Assembly: GCA_035571835.1 (NCBI GenBank)
Contig: DATNBU010000037.1
Span: 140,753 to 204,752 of the forward strand
Length of the DNA: 64,000 nucleotides
Direction: 5' to 3'
From: Candidatus Limnocylindrales bacterium
Lineage (GTDB): Bacteria; Desulfobacterota; Binatia; UBA1149; CAITLU01
The notes beneath the pieces are model-generated. The model was given only the letters and a program-made list of their open reading frames with translations. It did no database searches and had not been told where the DNA came from. The position numbers were made by a program, and so were the translations under genes. Shown one piece after another: positions 14,914 to 26,263 of the stretch (the first letter of the stretch is position 1; the number at the start of each line of letters is the position of its first letter).

Positions 14914-15070
14914 GCGCGGGTCCTCCGGCATCGGCTCAAAGCCGAAGGCCGTCGGCGAGTAAAATCGGCGGCGAAATGCGTGCTGCGGCGCGCTTCCTGC
15001 GCGTCGCCTGCCGGCGAGTGGACATCGGGCGACGAAGTGGCTAGCAGAAGGGCCTTCCACTGCTCGTTCG

Positions 15071-15146
15071 GTCGCATAGCTCAGCTGGTTAGAGCGCTCG
15101 CCTCACATGCGAGAGGTCCCTGGTTCGAATCCAGGTGCGACCACCA
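15071..15146 (+). tRNA. tRNA-Val (anticodon CAC)
   Basis: GGTCGCATAGCTCAGCTGGTTAGAGCGCTCGCCTCACATGCGAGAGGTCCCTGGTTCGAATCCAGGTGCGACCACCA; acceptor GGTCGCA/TGCGACC; anticodon loop CUCACAU; CCA encoded. Confidence 0.9.
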
Positions 15147-15214
15147 TCTTTGATTCCCTGCACGTCCCGCGAAGTCCGAAACACGAATTGTCAAGGGCGA
15201 ATGGCAGATGCCCC

Positions 15215-15349
15215 GCGGCTCGGATGAAGATGCGGGTGAAGCACATTGTTCCGCTGTCAGAGCAGGCGGTCGCCATTCTCGGGGAACTCGCAGTCAGCGC
15301 GGCGTACAACTTCGCCGAGCATCTGCCGGAGCGGCGCAGAATGATGTAA
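15215..15349 (+). pseudogene. Remnant of a P4-type tyrosine integrase (internal ~45-aa fragment only)
   Basis: ARMKMRVKHIVPLSEQAVAILGEL resembles the conserved P4-integrase segment ERMKMRRPHIVPLSxQAL; no N-terminal or catalytic RHRY region is present. Confidence 0.5.
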
Positions 15350-15612: not shown

Positions 15613-17151
15613 CTATGGTTCTGCTTCGACATCCGCCTCGTCCTCCTCCAACTTCTGTCGCAACTCATCTAACGCCGCAACCGCCAGCAGTTCTCGTACG
15701 GGGTAAGCGATGGGTAACATTGGGGTCCGCGGGTGGCTGGCCTCACCTGTCGGAAGCTCAACGCGATTCCCCTCCTCGTCCTTTCGGGACAAAACCACCC
15801 CGTCTGACCTCACCATGCTAAACAGGTCGCCATACCGACGAGGTGCAACGCCGAGGAAGGGTCCCAGCACCATGCGGGCCGCTTGAGCATCCACCGCTGA
15901 ATCCTCTCCCGCATGATGGATCGCATCTCCGTGGAGAGGTAGAGCCTCACTTTTCGGATATGGCTCGATATAGACGATTCGCTTCACTCCCGCCGCAACC
16001 GCGTGCCGAGCGCAGTTGTGACACGGGAAGGTGGTCGTGTAGAGGACCGCGTTTCGGACACTCACGCCAACACGCGCCGCCGACAAGAGTGCCTCCATCT
16101 CCGCATGAACGGTTCGTCCATACTCGGTGATGTCCCGTAGCTTTGATTCGGAAAGCACGCGTGTCGCTTTCTCGACATCATCCACCAAGCCCTGTTCCCT
16201 AAGGGCCTCGGCAGCCCTCGCCGCGATTACTCGGAGACGTGCGGTGTTCGAGTCGAACCCAATGGCGAGGTCTCGCATGTCGGGATTGTCCTCAGCGCTA
16301 TACAGCCCGCCGCCGGGACGTGGGACTTCATTGTGCCCAACGCCGATCAGGTCCCCGGTTTCAGCGATGAGAGCAGCTCCGATCTGTCGTGCGAGCGCGC
16401 CCGAACGAATCGATGCTCCGAACGCTGCGTGCATCCCAAATTCGTCGAGCGTGGGGGTGTGGAAAGGGTTGCCGAATACCAAGTCGAGAAAGCGATGGAG
16501 GGCCGCCTGTGTGGACTCGTAGCTGGAAACATCGATGAAGACATCTGAAAGATGGAATGTATCTCGGGTCTGTTGCCCGAACTTTTTGTCCTCCTCTTCG
16601 TCCTCATCACGTCTCAAAAGCTTCTCCGCCTGCTCTTCGGAGAGACCTTGCGAGACTTGGAGATGGCGCTTGCGCAAGTTGCGTGGGGCGAAAGCGCCGA
16701 TCAGATAGAACCCGGGTCCGTAGATTTGACGTAGGGTCCGGACTTCCTCCGGGCGTTTCAGCGAATCAAGAACGTGAACGTGCCGGGGCAGAGTCGGATC
16801 CGGGTCTTCGATGTCCTCCGTCGCCTGTGCGCGGCGCTCTGAGATGTTGAACACGGCTGACAGCACGAGCGCATTGCAGTAACCGGACCGTCGCCGGAGT
16901 TCGTTTCCGGCGGTCATATATGAGTTGACGCGATTGAAGTAGGGGTCGCCTTCGATCGGCACGCCGAGAATCTCGGCGAAATTCGGAAGGTCGTCGCTCA
17001 GTTTTACAGTGTTGACCTCGTACCGCCGAACGGCGAACAGGTCGCGTAGAACCGACGTGACGAAATCGCGGTTGCAGCCAATTGGTGCGACCAGTCCAAT
17101 GATGAGTTCGGAGTTGGCGGTCGCAAAGAGTGAAACCTCAGATGTCCCCAC
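15613..17151 (-). CDS. AvcD/DCD-like anti-phage deoxycytidylate (dCTP/dCMP) deaminase candidate: C-terminal CMP/dCMP-type zinc deaminase domain after a ~300-aa N-terminal domain
   Basis: HAEMEAL...PCHNCARHAVAAGVKRIVYIEPYP is the H[AC]E...PCxxC zinc-binding signature of dCMP/cytidine deaminases. The 512-aa architecture matches described defensive deaminases. Located in the tRNA island. Confidence 0.7.
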   Translation of the reverse strand: MGTSEVSLFATANSELIIGLVAPIGCNRDFVTSVLRDLFAVRRYEVNTVKLSDDLPNFAEILGVPIEGDPYFNRVNSYMTAGNELRRRSGYCNALVLSAVFNISERRAQATEDIEDPDPTLPRHVHVLDSLKRPEEVRTLRQIYGPGFYLIGAFAPRNLRKRHLQVSQGLSEEQAEKLLRRDEDEEEDKKFGQQTRDTFHLSDVFIDVSSYESTQAALHRFLDLVFGNPFHTPTLDEFGMHAAFGASIRSGALARQIGAALIAETGDLIGVGHNEVPRPGGGLYSAEDNPDMRDLAIGFDSNTARLRVIAARAAEALREQGLVDDVEKATRVLSESKLRDITEYGRTVHAEMEALLSAARVGVSVRNAVLYTTTFPCHNCARHAVAAGVKRIVYIEPYPKSEALPLHGDAIHHAGEDSAVDAQAARMVLGPFLGVAPRRYGDLFSMVRSDGVVLSRKDEEGNRVELPTGEASHPRTPMLPIAYPVRELLAVAALDELRQKLEEDEADVEAEP

Positions 17152-17615
17152 GCGCCTCAGACTATAGAGGTTTGACGGCTTCCTGGCAGCTGAGCTGTGC
17201 GTTTCTCACTGAAGTCGCCGTCCGGACCCTTGCAGCGACGATTTGGCTGGGCTGCTTCTCGTGAGGCGAACAGTAACTTGGCTCACTTCGGGAGGACTGC
17301 CCATGCCACGCTCTTCGACAGCGGAAGCGACACAGCAACAATTCCTTTCAGCAATGGGCGAAGAATGGGCAACGCGGGCAGTCACGACGGCGGAGAAGCC
17401 AGCGTCGCGGATGTGCGTGTCGCCTACGACCTGCTCGAACACATCTTGTCCGAAGTATACGAAGGCAAGGGAAAGTCGCTGAAGGTACTCGCGAAAAAGG
17501 TAAACAAGAAGAAGGGGCCGGTAACATAGATGCGCTTGCCTGCTCTCCATATGGCGATCTCGCTAGGCGTGCGTGATCTTAGTCGCTCAATGGAACCAAC
17601 CCACGGACGCCACCA

Positions 17616-18500
17616 ATGAAATACGACAGATTCAATCGGTTCGAAGGGACGAGCTGGGCATTTTGGCAGTTCAATGAGTACGAAACTCAGATCAACAGCG
17701 CGTACTGGTCTGGGGTCGCGGCAGTTTCTCGCGCCAGCTACGAGATTCGGCGTAGTGCACCGCCCGTCAATGCAAGGGTGGTAATGCATGCCACGGGAAC
17801 GGACGCGCAGCGAATCTCGGCTGAGGGTCCCGCTTTTGTTGCGAATCTCGGCGAATTTCTTAAGTGGAACAGAGCCAGCTTCATTTTGGCAGCAACCGGA
17901 GCCTTTGAAACGTACATCTGGCGAGTCGTGTTAACTGCGTTGATGTCGGATCCTGCCGCGTTGCATGGCAAGTCTCGAGCAATCGATGGAGCGACTTGGC
18001 TGAAGTTGGGACTTCGACCGGACTACAGTGACATCAAGAAGCGGGTTACGAAGGATACGTGGTTCCAGCGCTATGCGGCTGTTCGGAATATCTTTGGTGA
18101 AATTCCAGCGCTGAGTAGTCGTGTTCCAGAATTAGATCAGATCAGAATTTTTCGTAACAACGCTGGGCACGCATTTGGGAGGGATTTGACGGTAGAACCA
18201 AATCTCACGGCGCGAACGACGGAACGCATGCGAACTATTGACGACACAAAGTTTAAGGAGTGGCTAGGTGTAATCTCGAAATCCGCAAAGGCCATCGATT
18301 CAGTGCTTGTCAAGAACCATATCGGTGATTTCGAGCCTATGATTCACTTTCACAACTACTATGAATCTCTTGGTACTGTGAAGCCGGGGATTAGCAGCGC
18401 ATTTGCCTCACAGTACAAGTTGGCCTTGGCAAAAACCGAAGGTCACTCTAAGGGCAACGAATATGCCCTGACACTGATTCGCGCTTACCTGAACGCGTAG
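17616..18500 (+). CDS. Hypothetical protein with an HEPN-like Rx4H motif (Abi_2/AbiD/AbiF-like)
   Basis: 294 aa, low GC; ELDQIRIFRNNAGHAFGRDL fits the HEPN R-x4-H motif (Abi_2 consensus lRNxxAH). Confidence 0.45.
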   Translation: MKYDRFNRFEGTSWAFWQFNEYETQINSAYWSGVAAVSRASYEIRRSAPPVNARVVMHATGTDAQRISAEGPAFVANLGEFLKWNRASFILAATGAFETYIWRVVLTALMSDPAALHGKSRAIDGATWLKLGLRPDYSDIKKRVTKDTWFQRYAAVRNIFGEIPALSSRVPELDQIRIFRNNAGHAFGRDLTVEPNLTARTTERMRTIDDTKFKEWLGVISKSAKAIDSVLVKNHIGDFEPMIHFHNYYESLGTVKPGISSAFASQYKLALAKTEGHSKGNEYALTLIRAYLNA

Positions 18501-18520
18501 CGCGCGACGCTACAGTCGCA

Positions 18521-19303
18521 GTGCCAGCCGTTCTCCCCATGCCTAACTTCCTCAAGCGATTACTGCTGAGGCATGTTTTAAAGAAACCCTCTCCGGATGT
18601 CGTCCCACGAAGCGGTGAGGCGGCGCGACAAGTTGACTGTCGTGTCGCGTACATTCGCCGAACAGAGCCTGAGCCGGAGGTTCTTGTCCAATCCGCGGGA
18701 GCGTCGGAAGTTACGGGCCTTCGTCGAGAGGCGGGTCGATTTCAAGTACCCTTGTCTCTCAGCTACGAAGATTTTTCAGCTGGGGATGTCGAGATTATCC
18801 ACTGGTATGGATTGACGAGTTTTCGATACGATGGGCTGTGGCGTTACGTCCTCGAAGGATTGACCGGCTTCGATAGAGCAAGCTTTCTCTACGATCGCGC
18901 ACGGCAGTTGGGGTTCAATCGGAAGCCACTACTTCGGTACAGCCTAACTGAATTGCTAGATACCCTTGTGGAAGCCGCACAACTTCATCCAACCGAGGAA
19001 CACTCCTCCGTATCGTTGCTAGTTCGCCGTTACGGCGAACGATGCATAGAGCACCCAGACTGGGAAACCGTCCGCGGGAGCACACAATTGTTTCTCGATG
19101 CGCTTGTGAGTTCTGATTCTTTGGAGCGGACAGCCACTGGCTATCGAGTGAAGCCTAAAGCGGTTCTTGCCCTGGCGGAGTTTCAAGAAGCCGAGCGACG
19201 TCACCGTGAGAACTTCCGTACGGCTAGAGCGATGACTCGTCTCACGGTCGTGCTCGTTATCATCGGAATTGTTCAGGCATACGTGACTTGGATGAGTCCG
19301 TAG
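18521..19303 (+). CDS. Hypothetical membrane-anchored protein (single C-terminal TM helix)
   Basis: 260 aa beginning 20 nt after the previous gene; C-terminal RLTVVLVIIGIVQAYVTWMSP; no recognisable domain. Confidence 0.45.
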   Translation: MPAVLPMPNFLKRLLLRHVLKKPSPDVVPRSGEAARQVDCRVAYIRRTEPEPEVLVQSAGASEVTGLRREAGRFQVPLSLSYEDFSAGDVEIIHWYGLTSFRYDGLWRYVLEGLTGFDRASFLYDRARQLGFNRKPLLRYSLTELLDTLVEAAQLHPTEEHSSVSLLVRRYGERCIEHPDWETVRGSTQLFLDALVSSDSLERTATGYRVKPKAVLALAEFQEAERRHRENFRTARAMTRLTVVLVIIGIVQAYVTWMSP

Positions 19304-19375: not shown

Positions 19376-20764
19376 TCATCTTGGCGCATCGGCCAAGTAC
19401 TGATTCACGTCGGTGAACAGCGTCCGAATGGATTCCAGATGCTCCCGCCGAATGGCTTCGTTCTTCTCGTTAAGTAGCCCCTCCACTGCAGCCCGACCAG
19501 GTCTTTCAGTCTTCGTGCGGACATCGTTCGCAGGTTGGGCAAAGAATCTGTAGTCGGGAAACCGTCGCCGAAGCTCACCGACGAGTTCTGCTTTGTCGGC
19601 GTCGAGGATTCCTACAACCTTCGAATAGCCCAACTCCGCCAGGACAGCGGCGAGGTGTGCCATATTCCCCGCTCCTCCAACGCCCCAACCGAAGAAGTCA
19701 CCACCGAGTTGCAGATTGAGTTCCGTGAGCACGACGTCATAGAAGACCACATCCTCCTGTCCTTCGACGAGGACTACCCGATCGTCGACGAAGAAAATCT
19801 CTCTCGCGTTGAGTCCGAGCAAGTGAGGATTGTTTTTATCGCGAAGAAGTCCGTAGAGATGTCCGGCCGTTTCAACCGACAACTGGGAGACTCGCACTCC
19901 ATCCTCACGGAGGTGCGCACGCGCAATCGCCATGCCGCTTTCGAGTGCCCTGAGATCGATCAGGTAGGGCGAGTGCGTTGCGATGACGATCTGACGGCTC
20001 GCCGCGTACTCGAATATTATGTTTGCCAACCGCCGCTGAAGAGCCGGGTGGAGTGAGAGTTCCGGTTCATCGATTATGATGAGGTCGCCGTCTTTCGAAT
20101 CATAGAGCGCGTCTACGATGTAGAGGAGGCTCACCAACCCCTCACCTAACCCTTCGCTGCTATGTGTGCCGCGCGCGTCTTGAAACTTGAGAAAATAAGT
20201 CCCTTGGTCAGTCTGATCGATAGTCCAGTTAGGGAGGGGTGAAACGAGTTTGGAGAATAACTCGTCGAAACCTCCTCGGTCGCGATTAACGGCGAAGAGT
20301 CGGTGAGTCAGCTCATGGAGGTTGGTAGATCGAGAGGACGGAAGCCCCCCAGCGTGCTGCGCATAGTCAACTCTGCTCCACGTCGCTTTGCTGAAGTACG
20401 GGTCGAAGAACCGGCGAGACGGCAGAACGAGCAGTCTCCGAAGCGTTATGAGGTCGCCCGTGGTCTCTCGCTCAGTTTCGCTCTGCCCACGTCGGAGGCT
20501 TCGAAGCGTAGCTATACCACCATCGCACGAAGCGACGATTTCCACCCTATCTCCGGCAGGCAGGTTTCGACGGCCTTGCGAGAACGAAGGAGGTTCCGCC
20601 ATTCGGATCGCGCGGAAGGCCTCGATGATCGTCGTCTTGCCCGAGTTGTTTGCGCCAAGGACCACAGTCAGTCCGCTGCCGGGTGTTCCTGTGGGCTTGG
20701 CAAGGTTGAGCTGCTGGGCTGTCTGGAACCCCCGCAGCCCGTGAATGCGAATGTAGTCGAGCAT
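19376..20764 (-). CDS. OLD-family ATP-dependent endonuclease (AAA ATPase + TOPRIM), class-1 stand-alone
   Basis: Walker A GANNSGKTT; Walker B LIIIDEPELSLHP; C-terminal TOPRIM-like VVLVEGQEDVVFY...GILDADK. Confidence 0.8.
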   Translation of the reverse strand: MLDYIRIHGLRGFQTAQQLNLAKPTGTPGSGLTVVLGANNSGKTTIIEAFRAIRMAEPPSFSQGRRNLPAGDRVEIVASCDGGIATLRSLRRGQSETERETTGDLITLRRLLVLPSRRFFDPYFSKATWSRVDYAQHAGGLPSSRSTNLHELTHRLFAVNRDRGGFDELFSKLVSPLPNWTIDQTDQGTYFLKFQDARGTHSSEGLGEGLVSLLYIVDALYDSKDGDLIIIDEPELSLHPALQRRLANIIFEYAASRQIVIATHSPYLIDLRALESGMAIARAHLREDGVRVSQLSVETAGHLYGLLRDKNNPHLLGLNAREIFFVDDRVVLVEGQEDVVFYDVVLTELNLQLGGDFFGWGVGGAGNMAHLAAVLAELGYSKVVGILDADKAELVGELRRRFPDYRFFAQPANDVRTKTERPGRAAVEGLLNEKNEAIRREHLESIRTLFTDVNQYLADAPR

Positions 20765-21770: not shown

Positions 21771-22949
21771 CTACTCGCAATTCTCCGGGTAGAGCTCGCA
21801 GTGCTGAGGATTGCATCGGGACTGGCAATCCGGACCGGTGCAGTCGCGATCGTACAGCAATCCGATGTAGCACCACAGAGTCAGTTCCGTCTGGAGGTAC
21901 CTGAAGCGGAAGTACAGAACCGTGGGCGCTGGCGTGATCTCTTCGCCATCGAGCGGTAGCGGTGTGACCGTGAGGCGCACCCGCCAGTACGTGTCGGTGC
22001 CGGCATCGGTATCTTCCAGACTCGGGAGGCCGCTCGGCGGAATTTTCAGTACGGGCGAATTGGCGTGGGCGGTGAGCCATGGCATCTGTACCGGGCCTCC
22101 CTGCAGCGTCGATGGGAAAAGGATTTCCCACTGGTACGACAGTGCGGCGTTAACCTGCGAACAGACTCGTTCGTCGATAGTCCGGTCGGCATAGAGGAAC
22201 TGACCCTCGATATCGTCGCCCGATCCGTCAAGATCAGCGACAGTCTTGCATCCGCCGGCGCTCGGGGTTTGCATCCCACAATCCGGCCAAAAGCCCTCTT
22301 CCCGCACGAGCTCGTAAAAATCCGTACCCCGATCGATCTCGACGACGATGTCAGGACTGCCGTCGCCGCACAAAAGCGGCAGCGTCGTCGTCGTGGTGGT
22401 CGACGTGGTCGTGCTCGTTGTCGAAGTCGTCGAGGTCGTCGGCGGAGGCGGGAAGCACACGCCGGAGTCGTTGGCATCGACGGCGTAGTCGCCGTTGGTG
22501 TCCGCTCCGTCGATGCAGGTCGGCCGGTTGAAGCACACGTCGCCGGAGCGCTCCTGGCAGTCGGTTGCAGTTCTGATCTTGCAGCGGACCTTGCCGGCGG
22601 CGCTCTGCTCCACACATGGAGCCAGCTCGTCGCTGCCGATTCCGCAAACGGACGTCGCGTACATTTTCTTGAGCAAGCCTTTGCAGGTTTTGTTCAGGCC
22701 TTCCCTTTCGATGGCCAGATTGATCTGCCCGGCGACGCATCGTTTGAACTCGGCGCGCCCCTTCCCGTCGCTGCCATCGTACTGTGCGCAGGGACAGGCC
22801 AGATCGATCCAGCCCCTTGTCGATTCCATCAATCCGCCGTCCAGAAACGTCGGATCGCAAGGCTCGGCTGCGCGCGCCGGAGCGGCAGCGGCAGCGATGA
22901 GGACGAATGCCACAAGGAACGACCGGAAACGGTTGCTGTTCGCTTTCAT
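21771..22949 (-). CDS. Secreted cysteine-rich protein with a Thr/Ser-rich linker
   Basis: Signal peptide FLVAFVLIAAAAAPARA; 30+ Cys; PPPPTTSTTSTTSTTTSTTTTTT linker. Confidence 0.65.
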   Translation of the reverse strand: MKANSNRFRSFLVAFVLIAAAAAPARAAEPCDPTFLDGGLMESTRGWIDLACPCAQYDGSDGKGRAEFKRCVAGQINLAIEREGLNKTCKGLLKKMYATSVCGIGSDELAPCVEQSAAGKVRCKIRTATDCQERSGDVCFNRPTCIDGADTNGDYAVDANDSGVCFPPPPTTSTTSTTSTTTSTTTTTTLPLLCGDGSPDIVVEIDRGTDFYELVREEGFWPDCGMQTPSAGGCKTVADLDGSGDDIEGQFLYADRTIDERVCSQVNAALSYQWEILFPSTLQGGPVQMPWLTAHANSPVLKIPPSGLPSLEDTDAGTDTYWRVRLTVTPLPLDGEEITPAPTVLYFRFRYLQTELTLWCYIGLLYDRDCTGPDCQSRCNPQHCELYPENCE

Positions 22950-23317: not shown

Positions 23318-26263
23318 GTGGGCGGAATGCCTGAGGCCGATCGCGAAGCACCGCGCATCGACGACACCGCGGAATGCATCTGGCGCGACGGCGAAAAGAT
23401 CGGCGTCCCTCCGAAGGCCTTCCTCGTGTTGCGGCGACTGATGGAACGGCCGGGGCAGCTCGTCACGAAGAGCGACCTGCTGGATACGGTATGGCCGGGC
23501 ACCTTCATCACCGAGACTGTGCTCAACAATGCCGTCGGCCAGCTTCGTCAGGCTCTCGGCGACGACACACGGCGGCCGAGGTTCATCGAGACCGTTCACC
23601 GACGCGGCTTCCGATGGATCGGGCCGTCACAAACTGCCTCCGCGCTGCCACCGGCTGCGATCGGTGACGAGATCGGTGTCGGCTTCGCGGCCGCCGACGA
23701 TTTCGTTGGTCGCGCGGAGACCCTTGCCGAGCTTGCGCGTCATCTTGCGCGCGCGGCCGCGCGTCAGCGCCAGCTCGTTTTCGTGACCGGCGAGCCGGGC
23801 ATCGGAAAGTCCGCTCTGGTCGAAAACTTTCTCCGTGGACTCGCCGCGTCCGATCCTGCGAGCGTCAACGTCGGGCGTGGAGAGTGCATCGAAGCTTACG
23901 GCGTCGGCGACCTGTACCGACCGGTGCGCGATGCGGTCGAGCAGATGCTGCAGCGAAGCGGCCCCGACACGCTGCGGGCGTTTCGCCGGCACGCTCCGAG
24001 CTGGCTGCTTTCGATGCCCGAGCTTTCGAGCGCTGCCGAGCTCGAGGAGCTTCGTCGCGCCGTCATCGGCGCGACCAGCGACAGTGTGCAGCGCGAGCTC
24101 GAACGTGCGCTAGAAGCAGCGAGCACCAGGGCTGTCGTCGTGCTCGTCATCGAAGACCTGCACTGGAGCGATCCTGCGACGGTATCGCTTCTATGGAGCC
24201 TGGCGGCGCGGCGCGAACCCGCGAGGCTGCTGATCGTCGGCACCTACCGGTCCGTCGACGCCATTGCGCAGCAGCACCCGATCATCCGGATGAAGCATGA
24301 GCTGAGCGCGAAGCGGCTATGCGTCGAAATCGCGCTCGAGGGGCTTTCGATCGACGGCGTCACATCCTTTCTCGACCTGCAGTTTTCCGGGCACCAGTTT
24401 CCGGCCGGGCTTGCGATCCCGCTTCACGAACAGAGCGCGGGCAATCCGCTGTTTCTGCTGAACGCTCTCGACGACTTCCGTCAGCGCGGATGGCTACGCG
24501 AAGAGGACGACGTCTGGCGATGCACCGTCGATCTCGACTCGATCGTGGCCTCGGTTCCCGAGAGCACGCGCGAGCTGGTCGGTTTTCGTATCGAGCAGCT
24601 GCCGGCAGCGACACGCATGCTTCTCGAGGCAGCCAGCATCGTCGGAGCGGGATTCGCCGCGCAGGCCGTCGCTGCAGCCGAGGGCGGCACGTGCGCGGAT
24701 GTGGAAACGCAGCTCGAGCCGCTGGCGCGGGCTGGGCAGTTCATCGAGAGCAGCGGCGAGGTCGTCTGGCCAAACGGCATTCGTGGTCGCGAGTATCGAT
24801 TTCGACACGCGCTCTACCGGCAGGTTCTCAGTCGCCACGTCACGCCGGCACGGCGCGCGCTTCTGCACCAGCGCATCGCGAGCGCTCTGGAAAGCGCGTA
24901 TGGCGAGCGCTGCAATGAAATTGCGGGACAGCTCAGTGTGCATTTCGAGCAGGCCGGCGACGCTGTGCGCGCGGCCGAGTACATCGACGTCCTCGCGAAG
25001 CAGGCCTACTCGCGTTCGGCCACCCACGAAGCCGAGGCGATGTACCGGCACGCCGTCGCGTTGCTGAAAAGCGGCCCGATGACTCCGGCGCGGCAGGAAC
25101 GGCTGCTCAAGTCGATGACTGCGCTCGGCATCGCGATGAGCACCGTGCACGGGCTCGGTAGCGCCGAAGCCGCCGAAGTATGGCAGGAAGCGCGCGAGCT
25201 CGGGCGGGCGCTGAACAGGACACCGGAGTACGTGGCGTCGCTCAGCGCGACGATCATGGCCAGGACCTATATGGGACAGGTCCGGGAAGCGCTGGCCATT
25301 GCTCAGGAAAGCCTCCTGCTCGCCGGAAGCGATCAATCGTCCAGTGCCGTCACCGTCGCGCACATGTCGATGGGGCAGAGCCTGCTGTATCTCGGCGAGA
25401 TCGACGCGGCGCTCGTCCATTCCGAGCGCGCTGTCGCATCGATCGATCTCGAAGCGCCCGAAGCGCTCCGCCTTGACGCTTCCGGCTACGATCCGTCGGC
25501 GCCGGCGACGCTTTCGCGAGGATGGTGTCTGGTCCTTGCCGGGCGCCTGCGCGAAGGAAGAGCGTTGACCGAGTCGGCGATCCGCATGGCTCGCGCCAAG
25601 CAGCAACCGTTCTATCTGATCTTCAACGTGAGCATGGCGGGACTGGTCGCGCTGATCCTCCGGGATCCTGCTCGGGCTCACGAGCTGGCGGCCGAGGCGC
25701 TGGCTATTGGCGAAGAAAACTCGCTGCCGTACGGCCGGGAGATGAACCAGATCGTCTGCGGCTGGGCCGACGTTCGCCGCACTCTCGATCCGAAACCGCT
25801 CGGCCGGATGCGCGAGATCCTCGACTCCATTCTCGGGACAGGGACGCTGCAGGTTTCGCGCGGATGCAGCATGTTCGCCGACGCGTGTCTGGCGGCGGGC
25901 CGCATCGACGATGCCTGCGAAGCGAACACTGCGGCGTTCGAAACGCGTGGGGAAGGACGCTTCTACGACGCCGAGTTGTTGCGCCAGCGCGCGGCGATCG
26001 TGCTGGCTCGTTCGAAGCAGGGCGGTTCGAGCTCCGAGCAGGCCGGAGAGCTGCTCGAGCAGGCGATCAACGTGGCGCACTCGCAGGGCGCGAAGCTGTT
26101 CGAGCTGCGCGCTCTCGTCGAGCTTTGCAGACTGCGGTCGAGCGACGGCTGGCGCGATGAGGCGCGCCAGCGACTCGAGGCTGTGATCGGCAGCGTCGAT
26201 GGTGACGACGATGAAATCGACCTGCGGGAGGCGCGTGAGGTGCTCGAAGAAATGAGGCGTTGA
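23318..26263 (+). CDS. Transcriptional regulator: OmpR/CadC-type winged-helix DNA-binding N-terminus fused to a STAND/AAA ATPase and a TPR-like C-terminal region
   Basis: trans_reg_C-like VPPKAFLVLRRLMERPGQLVTKSDLLDTVWPG...RRGFRWIG; Walker A VFVTGEPGIGKSAL; 981 aa. Confidence 0.8.
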   Translation: MGGMPEADREAPRIDDTAECIWRDGEKIGVPPKAFLVLRRLMERPGQLVTKSDLLDTVWPGTFITETVLNNAVGQLRQALGDDTRRPRFIETVHRRGFRWIGPSQTASALPPAAIGDEIGVGFAAADDFVGRAETLAELARHLARAAARQRQLVFVTGEPGIGKSALVENFLRGLAASDPASVNVGRGECIEAYGVGDLYRPVRDAVEQMLQRSGPDTLRAFRRHAPSWLLSMPELSSAAELEELRRAVIGATSDSVQRELERALEAASTRAVVVLVIEDLHWSDPATVSLLWSLAARREPARLLIVGTYRSVDAIAQQHPIIRMKHELSAKRLCVEIALEGLSIDGVTSFLDLQFSGHQFPAGLAIPLHEQSAGNPLFLLNALDDFRQRGWLREEDDVWRCTVDLDSIVASVPESTRELVGFRIEQLPAATRMLLEAASIVGAGFAAQAVAAAEGGTCADVETQLEPLARAGQFIESSGEVVWPNGIRGREYRFRHALYRQVLSRHVTPARRALLHQRIASALESAYGERCNEIAGQLSVHFEQAGDAVRAAEYIDVLAKQAYSRSATHEAEAMYRHAVALLKSGPMTPARQERLLKSMTALGIAMSTVHGLGSAEAAEVWQEARELGRALNRTPEYVASLSATIMARTYMGQVREALAIAQESLLLAGSDQSSSAVTVAHMSMGQSLLYLGEIDAALVHSERAVASIDLEAPEALRLDASGYDPSAPATLSRGWCLVLAGRLREGRALTESAIRMARAKQQPFYLIFNVSMAGLVALILRDPARAHELAAEALAIGEENSLPYGREMNQIVCGWADVRRTLDPKPLGRMREILDSILGTGTLQVSRGCSMFADACLAAGRIDDACEANTAAFETRGEGRFYDAELLRQRAAIVLARSKQGGSSSEQAGELLEQAINVAHSQGAKLFELRALVELCRLRSSDGWRDEARQRLEAVIGSVDGDDDEIDLREAREVLEEMRR

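What the first reader, a model, noticed from the sequence alone, without database searches (positions are those of the whole stretch)
17616..19303. Uncharacterised two-gene cassette (HEPN-like + membrane-anchored protein) between two known defence genes
Two co-oriented low-GC genes, 20 nt apart, sit between the deaminase gene and the OLD nuclease. The first has the motif IRIFRNNAGHAFGRD, matching the HEPN Rx4H RNase signature of Abi_2 (AbiD/AbiF-type) proteins, but otherwise lacks recognisable similarity. The second (260 aa) has a single C-terminal TM helix (LTVVLVIIGIVQAYVTW). This reads as a nuclease/effector plus a membrane partner in defence context. It is the best candidate here for an undescribed antiphage system.
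Basis: inference. Interest (0 to 1): 0.8.

Follow-up and report, generated by a model that had tools for sequence, protein, structure and literature searches.

The report
Two unrelated solo genes, not a cassette
The two neighbouring genes are real, and the first is a predicted HEPN-type RNA-cutting protein as suspected, but the two gene families are never found together in any other genome sampled, so this is two independent, uncharacterised single genes in a defence island rather than a new two-gene antiphage system.

Summary
Both ORFs, the RNNAGH motif, the C-terminal membrane helix, the low GC and the two defence flanks (dCTP deaminase, OLD-like ATPase-TOPRIM) are confirmed. ORF2 more likely starts at ATG 18539 (254 aa).

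**ORF1 (17616-18500)** is a stand-alone HEPN protein.
- R180-N-x-x-G-H185 is invariant in 24 relatives.
- It matches no Abi_2 model and no PADLOC model.

**ORF2** belongs to a large unnamed family: 642 clusters, about 255-275 aa. It has an N-terminal beta domain, a winged helix, a long helix and a tail-anchoring membrane helix.

**The pairing is not conserved.**
- No ORF2 relative occurs in 48 loci holding ORF1 relatives.
- No ORF1 relative occurs in 10 loci holding ORF2 relatives (profile HMM, E<=1).
- Neither family has any conserved neighbour. Both occur as lone genes in islands, on plasmids and beside housekeeping genes.

Best reading: two independent cargo genes of a decayed tRNA-Val island. 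ORF1 is probably a single-protein abortive-infection RNase. ORF2's role is unknown.

Interest is modest.

The parts
15070..15146 (+). tRNA-Val(CAC), the left border and probable integration site of the low-GC island
   Evidence: ARAGORN. GC falls from about 0.64 to 0.52-0.60 between about 15.1 and 21 kb.
15203..15346 (+). Fragments of a tyrosine integrase (decayed)
   Evidence: tblastn of the 48-aa stretch hits annotated integrases / tyrosine recombinases in Ralstonia: 75.6% identity, E 1e-3, two pieces about 350 nt apart in the intact genes. No att repeat was found.
15613..17151 (-). dCTP deaminase defence gene (flank)
   Evidence: PADLOC dCTPase 3.5e-149; Pfam dCMP_cyt_deam_1 2e-14.
17197..17529 (+). 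ORF0: probable 5'-truncated remnant of a RAZR-like (zinc ribbon + DUF4145 HEPN) gene. Only the C-terminal catalytic stretch RRMGNAGSH... remains, and public gene calls keep only 54 aa (17365-17529).
   Evidence: Pfam DUF4145 E 0.13, profile positions 62-88 of 88. Local alignment to the C-terminus of the L042 Zn-ribbon/R..GN...H protein scores 44, reached by 8 of 1000 shuffles. Gene call of 54 aa. This part is tentative.
17616..18500 (+). ORF1: stand-alone HEPN-domain protein, 294 aa, no membrane segment
18144..18182 (+). Predicted catalytic motif R177-I-F-R180-N-N-A-G-H185-A-F-G-R189 (Rx4H)
   Evidence: Read directly from the sequence. These columns are invariant in alignment A1.
18539..19303 (+). 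ORF2: 254-aa tail-anchored protein (alternative GTG start at 18521). N-terminal beta-rich domain (about residues 33-98), helical linker, winged helix (about 136-204), long helix 207-252.
19241..19291 (+). C-terminal transmembrane helix LTVVLVIIGIVQAYVTW of ORF2, with 3 residues after it
   Evidence: Mean Kyte-Doolittle score 2.14. The same position is hydrophobic in 143/155 relatives, and in the other 12 relatives it sits ahead of a longer tail.
19376..20764 (-). OLD-like ABC ATPase + TOPRIM protein (flank), convergent with ORF2
   Evidence: Pfam AAA_21 5e-26, AAA_15 1.9e-19, OLD-like_TOPRIM 1.1e-3; PADLOC AriA 8.6e-26, Old 6.3e-20.

Best explanation
The region holds two functionally independent single genes. 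They happen to lie side by side among the cargo of an old, decaying genomic island integrated at tRNA-Val.

ORF1 is a stand-alone HEPN-superfamily protein. By inference from the HEPN superfamily, it forms a homodimer whose two Rx4H motifs (R180/H185) build a composite, metal-independent RNase site. It is kept inactive by its own N- and C-terminal helical extensions. On infection it cuts cellular RNA (tRNA, rRNA or mRNA) and stops translation. This is the single-protein abortive-infection mode shown for the HEPN proteins ApeA, RAZR and Tha.

ORF2 belongs to a separate, much larger unnamed family. Its members are tail-anchored inner-membrane proteins whose cytoplasmic part carries a variable beta-rich domain and a winged helix. 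The most likely reading is a membrane-tethered nucleic-acid- or protein-binding module that works alone. Its biological role is not established; accessory or defence cargo of mobile elements is the best guess.

Shown here: the gene models, the motif conservation, the HEPN and winged-helix folds (predicted), the tail anchor, the lack of linkage, and the variable or mobile contexts.

Inferred, not shown: RNase activity, dimerisation, autoinhibition, phage triggering, and any defence phenotype.
For: HEPN assignment:
- Invariant R-N-x-x-G-H plus F-G-R in 24 sequences down to 23% identity.
- Weak independent profile hits to RTasHEPN (9/24), CARF_HEPN, HEPN_RiboL-PSP and HepT-like_2.
- UniRef and RefSeq label relatives 'RiboL-PSP-HEPN' or 'HEPN domain-containing protein'.

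Independence of the two genes:
- tblastn of ORF2 finds nothing at E<=1 in 48 ORF1-family loci.
- HMM A2 against those loci, and HMM A1 against 10 ORF2-family loci, give zero hits at E<=1.
- All-vs-all clustering of neighbours finds no family shared between independent loci.
- Genes upstream of ORF2 relatives are unrelated to each other.

Solo occurrence:
- ORF1 relatives are flanked by opposite-strand or unrelated genes (L008-L011, L013, L059).
- ORF2 relatives sit alone between housekeeping genes (L050-L053).

Mobile or defence context of ORF1 relatives:
- MqsRA, a RAZR-like gene and Bub genes (L001).
- Lamassu LmuB_C, MC3 and CTD7 (L006).
- HsdR (L017, L022), UvrD, integrase, Abi_C, DUF4145 and DUF5677.
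- Fic and transposases, and IS elements on plasmids.

Context of ORF2 relatives: conjugative plasmids, next to TA modules, a restriction endonuclease, Shedu and partition genes.

Island: tRNA-Val, integrase fragments and low GC.
Against: - The two genes are co-oriented and 38 nt apart, with no terminator-like site between them. They are probably co-transcribed here, so a local functional coupling cannot be excluded.
- A HEPN gene followed by a winged-helix gene of about 250 aa is also the layout of the type IX retron effector pair, in which WH alone dampens HEPN toxicity.
- Several relatives of both families sit beside ordinary metabolic genes. Defence association was not measured against a background.
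- No experiment supports RNase activity or phage protection.
Confidence: 0.65

Rival explanations
1. ORF1 and ORF2 form a lineage-specific toxin/partner pair. The membrane-tethered winged-helix protein binds and restrains, or localises, the HEPN RNase until infection. This would resemble the HEPN-WH effector pair of type IX retrons, but without a reverse transcriptase.
For: - The genes share a strand, lie 20-38 nt apart, and have no terminator-like site between them.
- The same arrangement is kept in two other assemblies of this population.
- Type IX retrons encode HEPN then WH (245 aa), and WH alone mitigates HEPN toxicity.
- ORF1 relatives weakly match the PADLOC RT-associated HEPN model.
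Against: - The two families never co-occur in the 58 other loci examined.
- Both occur as isolated genes.
- There is no RT or ncRNA nearby in the window, and no RVT_1 in the Pfam-annotated ORF1 loci.
- ORF2 matches no retron WH model; only one of 60 relatives hits WH_III-A, at E 0.018.
- The retron HEPN lacks Rx4-6H, whereas ORF1 has it.
- The assemblies are the same population, so they are not independent evidence.
Confidence: 0.1
2. ORF2 is itself a single-gene exclusion or defence protein: a tail-anchored DNA-binding protein acting on incoming phage or plasmid DNA at the inner face of the membrane. ORF1 is a separate single-gene Abi protein, so the island carries two additional one-gene systems.
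For: - ORF2 relatives are lone genes on conjugative plasmids, among TA modules, a restriction endonuclease and Shedu.
- One sits in an island with Hypoth_Ymh and DUF6602.
- Match to a PHROG family of unknown function.
- Winged-helix fold plus a conserved tail anchor.
- The N-terminal domain is variable and the C-terminal half is conserved.
Against: - No PADLOC match for ORF2 or for 60 relatives beyond noise.
- No hit in 50,697 phage genomes or in BFVD.
- Some relatives lie between housekeeping genes, for example directly after a gyrB/parE-like gene.
- A regulatory or plasmid-maintenance role fits the same data.
Confidence: 0.2
3. ORF1 works together with the upstream DUF4145 (RAZR-like) gene rather than with ORF2, as a two-HEPN module. 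In the window this module is already inactivated by truncation of ORF0.
For: RAZR-like Zn-ribbon/DUF4145 genes lie directly beside ORF1 relatives in L001 (upstream), L019 (downstream, 19-nt gap) and L042 (downstream, opposite strand). A remnant lies upstream in the window.
Against: - Only about 4 of about 45 independent loci show this, and order and orientation differ between them.
- The DUF4145 genes are not similar to one another by BLAST.
- RAZR works as a single protein.
- Such adjacency is expected for unrelated genes that share defence islands.
Confidence: 0.07
4. ORF1 is not an immune gene. It would be an RNA-processing or regulatory HEPN protein, or a selfish addiction toxin that stabilises mobile elements.
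For: - HEPN domains also act in RNA processing and in TA addiction modules (PMC3710099).
- Several relatives lie next to metabolic genes.
- There is no phage-related experimental evidence.
Against: - Distribution is patchy across many phyla and the family is rare: 24 clusters among 5.8e9 sequences.
- Low GC.
- Repeated location beside integrases, IS elements, R-M and other defence genes.
- No adjacent antitoxin-like gene, which argues against a classical TA module.
Confidence: 0.15

Closest known systems
Single-protein HEPN abortive-infection systems (ApeA, RAZR, Tha)
   Same: ORF1 is a lone gene in islands or mobile elements. It has a HEPN fold with a conserved Arg/His motif and extra non-catalytic regions that could gate activity, and it has no antitoxin gene. 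RAZR and ApeA are described as HEPN RNases activated by phage-derived triggers.
   Different: There is no sequence match to the PADLOC ApeA or any other model. ORF1 has no zinc finger or DUF4145 match, which RAZR has. It has no ApeA-type beta-rich N-terminal domain; its extensions are all-helical. Activity and trigger are unknown.
Pfam HEPN_RiboL-PSP (PF18735) and the PD-T4-2_B protein
   Same: UniRef names two ORF1 relatives 'RiboL-PSP-HEPN domain-containing'. Two of 24 relatives hit PF18735. PD-T4-2_B is listed as a RiboL-PSP-HEPN protein.
   Different: The best E-value is 0.015, below any curated threshold, and the window protein itself gives no hit at E<=10. There is no PADLOC PD-T4-2 hit. 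No conserved partner gene is present, whereas the '_B' label implies that PD-T4-2 has more than one gene.
RT-associated HEPN proteins (PADLOC RTasHEPN; UG22-associated cluster; AbiA C-terminal HEPN)
   Different: No reverse transcriptase gene lies next to ORF1 or in the Pfam-annotated relatives' loci. The window protein itself does not reach E<=1.
   Same: Both are HEPN-type proteins with an R-N-x-x-x-H-like motif and an abortive-infection context (family knowledge; PMC3710099).
   Different: No Pfam Abi_2 hit for ORF1 at E<=1, or for any of the 24 relatives at E<=10. No PADLOC AbiD hit.
Type IX retron effector pair (HEPN + winged-helix protein)
   Same: Gene order is HEPN then a WH protein of about 250 aa on one strand. 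In the retron, WH binds HEPN and reduces its toxicity (PMC7736814).
   Different: - There is no RT or ncRNA here.
- The retron HEPN is 174 aa and lacks Rx4-6H, whereas ORF1 is 294 aa and has it.
- The retron WH is soluble, whereas ORF2 is tail-anchored.
- The retron genes overlap by about 8 bp, whereas here the gap is 38 nt.
- The ORF1 and ORF2 families do not co-occur elsewhere.
PadR/MarR-type winged-helix proteins and kleisin/JetB winged helices (for ORF2)
   Different: ORF2 has an additional N-terminal beta-rich domain of unassigned fold and a C-terminal membrane anchor. It has no sequence match to any Pfam, NCBIfam or PDB entry.

Membership tests
HEPN superfamily (ORF1) | Conserved Rx4-6H motif | tested here: met
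   R180-N-N-A-G-H185. R180, N181, G184 and H185 are invariant in 24 sequences.
HEPN superfamily (ORF1) | All-alpha HEPN core fold | tested here: met
HEPN superfamily (ORF1) | Endoribonuclease activity dependent on the Arg/His pair | not testable with these tools
   Needs purified protein and R180A/H185A mutants.
Abi_2 / AbiD-AbiF (ORF1) | Match to the Pfam Abi_2 or PADLOC AbiD models | tested here: not met
   No hit for ORF1 at E<=1. None for the 24 relatives at E<=10 in Pfam or E<=0.1 in PADLOC.
HEPN_RiboL-PSP PF18735 (ORF1) | Score above the Pfam gathering threshold | tested here: not met
   Window protein: no hit. 2/24 relatives hit, best E 0.015.
HEPN-MNT toxin-antitoxin (ORF1) | Adjacent minimal nucleotidyltransferase antitoxin gene | tested here: not met
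   No conserved neighbour of any kind across 48 loci. No NTase domain was listed in the Pfam-annotated neighbours.
RT-associated HEPN / retron type IX (ORF1+ORF2) | Adjacent reverse transcriptase (and ncRNA) | tested here: not met
   No RVT_1 among the called genes of L001-L014 or of the window's own locus L066. ncRNA was not searched for.
RAZR (ORF0) | N-terminal Cys4 zinc ribbon plus C-terminal DUF4145 HEPN domain | tested here: not met
   ORF0 has no Cys motif. It matches only DUF4145 profile positions 62-88, at E 0.13. It reads as a truncated remnant.
Two-gene defence system (ORF1+ORF2) | Conserved co-occurrence and adjacency of the two families across unrelated genomes | tested here: not met
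   0 of 48 ORF1-family loci hold an ORF2 relative, and 0 of 10 ORF2-family loci hold an ORF1 relative (tblastn and hmmsearch, E<=1). The closest ORF2 relative (45% identity) has different neighbours.
Known or candidate defence families in PADLOC-DB v2 (ORF1, ORF2) | Significant HMM match | tested here: not met
   No hits at E<=1 for either window protein. Relatives give only scattered weak hits. Libraries newer than 2023 were not available.
Winged-helix DNA-binding proteins (ORF2) | wHTH fold | tested here: met
Tail-anchored membrane proteins (ORF2) | Single hydrophobic helix at the extreme C-terminus and none elsewhere | tested here: met
   Residues 235-251 of 254, Kyte-Doolittle score 2.14. 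The feature is conserved across 155 relatives. Membrane insertion was not tested.

The most novel reading that the evidence does not exclude
ORF2-family proteins are modular, membrane-tethered winged-helix partners. In this lineage one of them has been recruited to gate a stand-alone HEPN RNase. That would be an RT-less counterpart of the type IX retron HEPN-WH pair, in which the nuclease is held at the membrane until infection. It would imply a new class of two-gene HEPN system and a function for a family of more than 600 clusters.
Probability: 0.08. Interest if true: 0.65.

Novelty: new member of a known kind. Interest (0 to 1): 0.3.

Why it matters
If ORF1 relatives protect against phage, they add one more single-protein HEPN immune family with a canonical Rx4H site and unusual helical extensions. 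The family is spread thinly over at least eight phyla, which would make it useful for comparing how lone HEPN RNases are kept silent and then triggered.

ORF2 defines a sizeable unnamed family of tail-anchored winged-helix proteins found on plasmids and islands, including Klebsiella, Salmonella and Enterobacter plasmids. Its function is entirely open.

The main practical result is negative. The pair should not be carried forward as a candidate two-gene system. Each gene should be tested alone.

Tried and rejected
Searches that found nothing:
- Pfam, NCBIfam and PADLOC on both proteins gave nothing.
- PDB sequence searches with both family profiles gave nothing meaningful.
- tblastn of both proteins against 50,697 phage genomes gave no match.
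- Foldseek of the ORF2 model against BFVD gave no hit at E<=1e-3.
- A literature search for RefSeq accessions of plasmid homologs, and the DefensePredictor supplements, gave no mention. Some of those supplement files are truncated.

Searches that could not be run:
- The AlphaFold-database libraries were not available.
- The search for related loci on viral contigs with the ORF2 alignments could not run, because no stretch was conserved enough.
- The word-indexed search for ORF2 found only itself. The exhaustive phmmer search was needed to reveal the family.

Hypotheses considered and dropped:
- A variable but always-present upstream partner for ORF2, in the style of a promiscuous antitoxin. 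It was rejected because the upstream genes are unrelated to each other and several relatives have no co-oriented neighbour at all.
- An att direct repeat of the tRNA-Val 3' end that would delimit the island. None was found.
- BLAST of the post-tRNA region against integrases from fetched loci failed. A plasmid tblastn was then needed to confirm the integrase remnant.
- ORF0 compared with the L001 and L019 DUF4145 proteins was not significant pairwise. Only the L042 comparison reached about 1% of shuffles.
Full report
**Observation**

- ORF1 runs 17616-18500 (+, 294 aa). ORF2 runs 18521-19303 (+, 260 aa from GTG).
- Public gene calls for the identical protein (254 aa) and the N-termini of 60 relatives put the ORF2 start at ATG 18539. 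The intergenic gap is therefore 38 nt rather than 20 nt.
- The motif IRIFRNNAGHAFGRD lies at residues 176-190 of ORF1.
- The hydrophobic stretch LTVVLVIIGIVQAYVTW is residues 235-251 of the 254-aa ORF2.
- Both genes are GC-poor: 0.51 and 0.54 against 0.63 for the window. GC3 is 0.57 and 0.53 against 0.77 in neighbouring core genes.
- The left flank, 15613-17151(-), is a dCTP-deaminase defence gene (PADLOC dCTPase 3.5e-149).
- The right flank, 19376-20764(-), is an ABC-type ATPase with a weak OLD-like TOPRIM match (Pfam AAA_21 5e-26, OLD-like_TOPRIM 1.1e-3; PADLOC AriA 8.6e-26, Old 6.3e-20).

The whole low-GC block begins at tRNA-Val (15070-15146). Fragments of a tyrosine integrase follow immediately (15203-15346; tblastn to annotated Ralstonia integrases, 75.6% identity, E 1e-3, in two pieces). 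This is an old integrative island whose integrase has decayed. No att repeat could be found.

**ORF1**

ORF1 has no match in Pfam, NCBIfam or PADLOC at E<=1. A search of 5.8e9 proteins gives 24 relatives of the same length. A scan of one genome per species gives 34 loci spread over Pseudomonadota, Bacteroidota, Bacillota, Planctomycetota, Chloroflexota, Cloacimonadota and others.

In the alignment, R177, R180, N181, G184, H185, F187, G188 and R189 are invariant down to 23% identity. That gives R180-x4-H185, the HEPN signature.

Independent weak profile hits point the same way.
- PADLOC RTasHEPN in 9 of 24 members, best E 4.5e-4.
- PADLOC CARF_HEPN.
- Pfam HEPN_RiboL-PSP in 2 of 24 members, E 0.015, and HepT-like_2.
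- UniRef and RefSeq already label some relatives as HEPN.

ORF1 has no membrane segment. It is therefore a HEPN-superfamily protein with helical extensions on both sides of the core. It is not a member of Abi_2: no hit for it or for any relative.

**ORF2**

The word-indexed search found only the protein itself. An exhaustive phmmer pass over 1.84e9 cluster representatives found 642 relatives at E<=1e-3 and 334 at E<=1e-10. Nearly all are 250-275 aa and align over their whole length.

The family has conserved blocks: KKPxPxxIPRSG..VDC, HYYG, FNRKxLxRxxR, RWxxHP, SLVxSGDL and YEExERRH. The nearly invariant residues all lie in the C-terminal half. No Pfam, NCBIfam, PADLOC or PDB sequence match exists for ORF2 or its relatives beyond noise. 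Only phrog_7611, of unknown function, matches, at 1.9e-10.

The model (pLDDT 85.9, pTM 0.58; 8-sequence alignment) shows four parts.
- An N-terminal beta-rich domain, about residues 33-98.
- A helical linker.
- A winged helix, about residues 136-204.
- One long helix, 207-252, whose end is the membrane segment.

**Are the two genes a unit?**

This was the core of the finding, and the answer is no.
- tblastn of ORF2 finds nothing at E<=1 in the 48 loci holding ORF1 relatives.
- A profile HMM of the ORF2 family finds nothing in those loci. A profile HMM of the ORF1 family finds nothing in 10 loci holding ORF2 relatives.
- The closest ORF2 relative (45% identity) sits among DUF6602, Hypoth_Ymh and a group II intron.
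- All-vs-all clustering of every ORF within 5 kb of ORF1 relatives finds no family shared between independent loci.
- The genes just upstream of ORF2 relatives are unrelated to each other.

Both families occur as isolated genes.
- ORF1 relatives are flanked by opposite-strand genes or long gaps (L008-L011, L013, L059).
- ORF2 relatives lie between an amidohydrolase and an enoyl-CoA hydratase, or right after a gyrB/parE-like gene.

The only other places where the two are adjacent are further assemblies of the same population.

**Context**

Neighbours of ORF1 relatives are heterogeneous but are often mobile or defence-related.
- MqsRA, a Vsr-like endonuclease, a RAZR-like gene and a Bub ubiquitin-like system (L001).
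- Lamassu LmuB_C with MC3 and CTD7 (P. aeruginosa).
- Integrases.
- HsdR directly upstream (L017, L022), a UvrD-type helicase, Abi_C, DUF4145 and DUF5677.
- Fic, transposases and a weak HepT-like hit.
- IS elements on plasmids.
- Others abut ordinary metabolic genes.

ORF2 relatives are found on conjugative and other plasmids of Agrobacterium, Enterobacter, Salmonella, Klebsiella, Burkholderia and Shewanella. There they lie among TA modules, a restriction endonuclease, Shedu, recombinases and partition genes. No formal enrichment test against a background could be run.

**Mechanism**

The best-supported reading is two independent cargo genes.

For ORF1, I infer from the HEPN superfamily (PMC3710099) and from single-protein HEPN systems such as RAZR (PMC13017515) and ApeA that it acts as follows. 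It forms a homodimeric, metal-independent RNase whose composite site is built from R180/H185. It is held inactive by its own extensions and is triggered by infection to cut host RNA and arrest translation. Only the motif, the predicted fold and the context are shown here. Activity, dimerisation and triggering are inferred.

For ORF2, the architecture suggests a membrane-tethered nucleic-acid- or protein-binding module that functions alone. Its role is open, and defence, exclusion, plasmid maintenance and regulation all fit.

**Rival readings**

The main rival is a lineage-specific HEPN/WH pair.
- Type IX retrons encode a HEPN gene followed by a 245-aa winged-helix protein. That protein binds the nuclease and, even alone, reduces its toxicity (bioRxiv 10.64898/2026.07.14.738597; PMC7736814).
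- The layout here is similar, and no terminator-like site separates the genes.
- However, there is no RT. The retron HEPN lacks Rx4-6H. ORF2 matches no retron WH model. The two families never meet elsewhere.
- I give this rival about 0.1.

A second rival rests on the upstream remnant ORF0.
- Zn-ribbon plus DUF4145 (RAZR-like) genes lie beside ORF1 relatives in L001, L019 and L042.
- A truncated copy appears to lie upstream of ORF1 in the window.
- That is about 4 of about 45 independent loci, with varying order and strand.
- This is more likely shared island residence than partnership.

**Comparison and novelty**

ORF1 works like known single-gene HEPN Abi proteins. It fails the membership tests for Abi_2, HEPN_RiboL-PSP (below threshold), HEPN-MNT (no MNT gene), RT-associated HEPN (no RT) and RAZR (no zinc finger or DUF4145). 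It is an unnamed family within a well-known superfamily.

ORF2 is an unnamed family combining a common fold (winged helix) with a tail anchor and an unassigned N-terminal domain.

The proposed new two-gene system is not supported. I rate the finding as a new member of a known kind, with modest interest (0.3). What remains of value is two testable single-gene candidates and a family of more than 600 clusters with no known function.

Noticed in passing
window 17197-17529 (+); also L001 5192-5827, L019 8904-9554, L042 9094-9801(-): Zinc-ribbon + DUF4145 (RAZR-like) HEPN genes sit directly beside ORF1-family genes in three unrelated genomes. The window has what looks like a 5'-truncated remnant (RRMGNAGSH...) upstream of ORF1. 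That makes about 4 of about 45 independent loci.
   Followed up: partly
window 15203-15346 (+), just after tRNA-Val 15070-15146: Two short fragments of a tyrosine integrase (75.6% identity to Ralstonia integrases, E 1e-3). The island's integrase has decayed, and no att repeat was found.
   Followed up: partly
window 19376-20764 (-): The OLD-like ATPase-TOPRIM protein is short (462 aa) and appears to have no partner gene. Its best PADLOC hits are spread over AriA, Old, NsnB, HEC-01A, AbiLi, PtuA and GajA, so its system type is unresolved.
   Followed up: no
L058 1-2736 (metagenome contig with the closest ORF2 relative): A run of lone candidate conflict genes (DUF6602, Hypoth_Ymh, a 299-aa unknown) and a group II intron RT lie upstream of the ORF2 relative. 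It looks like another island of single-gene modules.
   Followed up: no
L057 3643-4176 and L063 4225-4662 (plasmids with ORF2 relatives): Small hypothetical proteins near ORF2 relatives carry HEPN-like R-N-x-x-x-x-H / R..N..RH motifs (FRNKWVVH; NRVYNALRH). These were noticed by eye only.
   Followed up: no
window 23318-26263 (+): A 981-aa protein with an OmpR-type Trans_reg_C DNA-binding domain fused to an AAA_16/STAND-like NTPase (an AfsR/SARP-like regulator architecture) lies just outside the low-GC block.
   Followed up: no
window 21771-22949 (-): A 392-aa Cys-rich protein with a signal-like N-terminus and a long Thr/Ser-rich linker (TTSTTSTTSTTTSTTTTTT). It has no Pfam match.
   Followed up: no
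L052 4033-6810 (Rhodovulum iodosum): An ORF2 relative starts 4 nt after a gyrB/parE-like gene. This is an odd, possibly operonic placement for a family otherwise seen on plasmids and islands.
   Followed up: no
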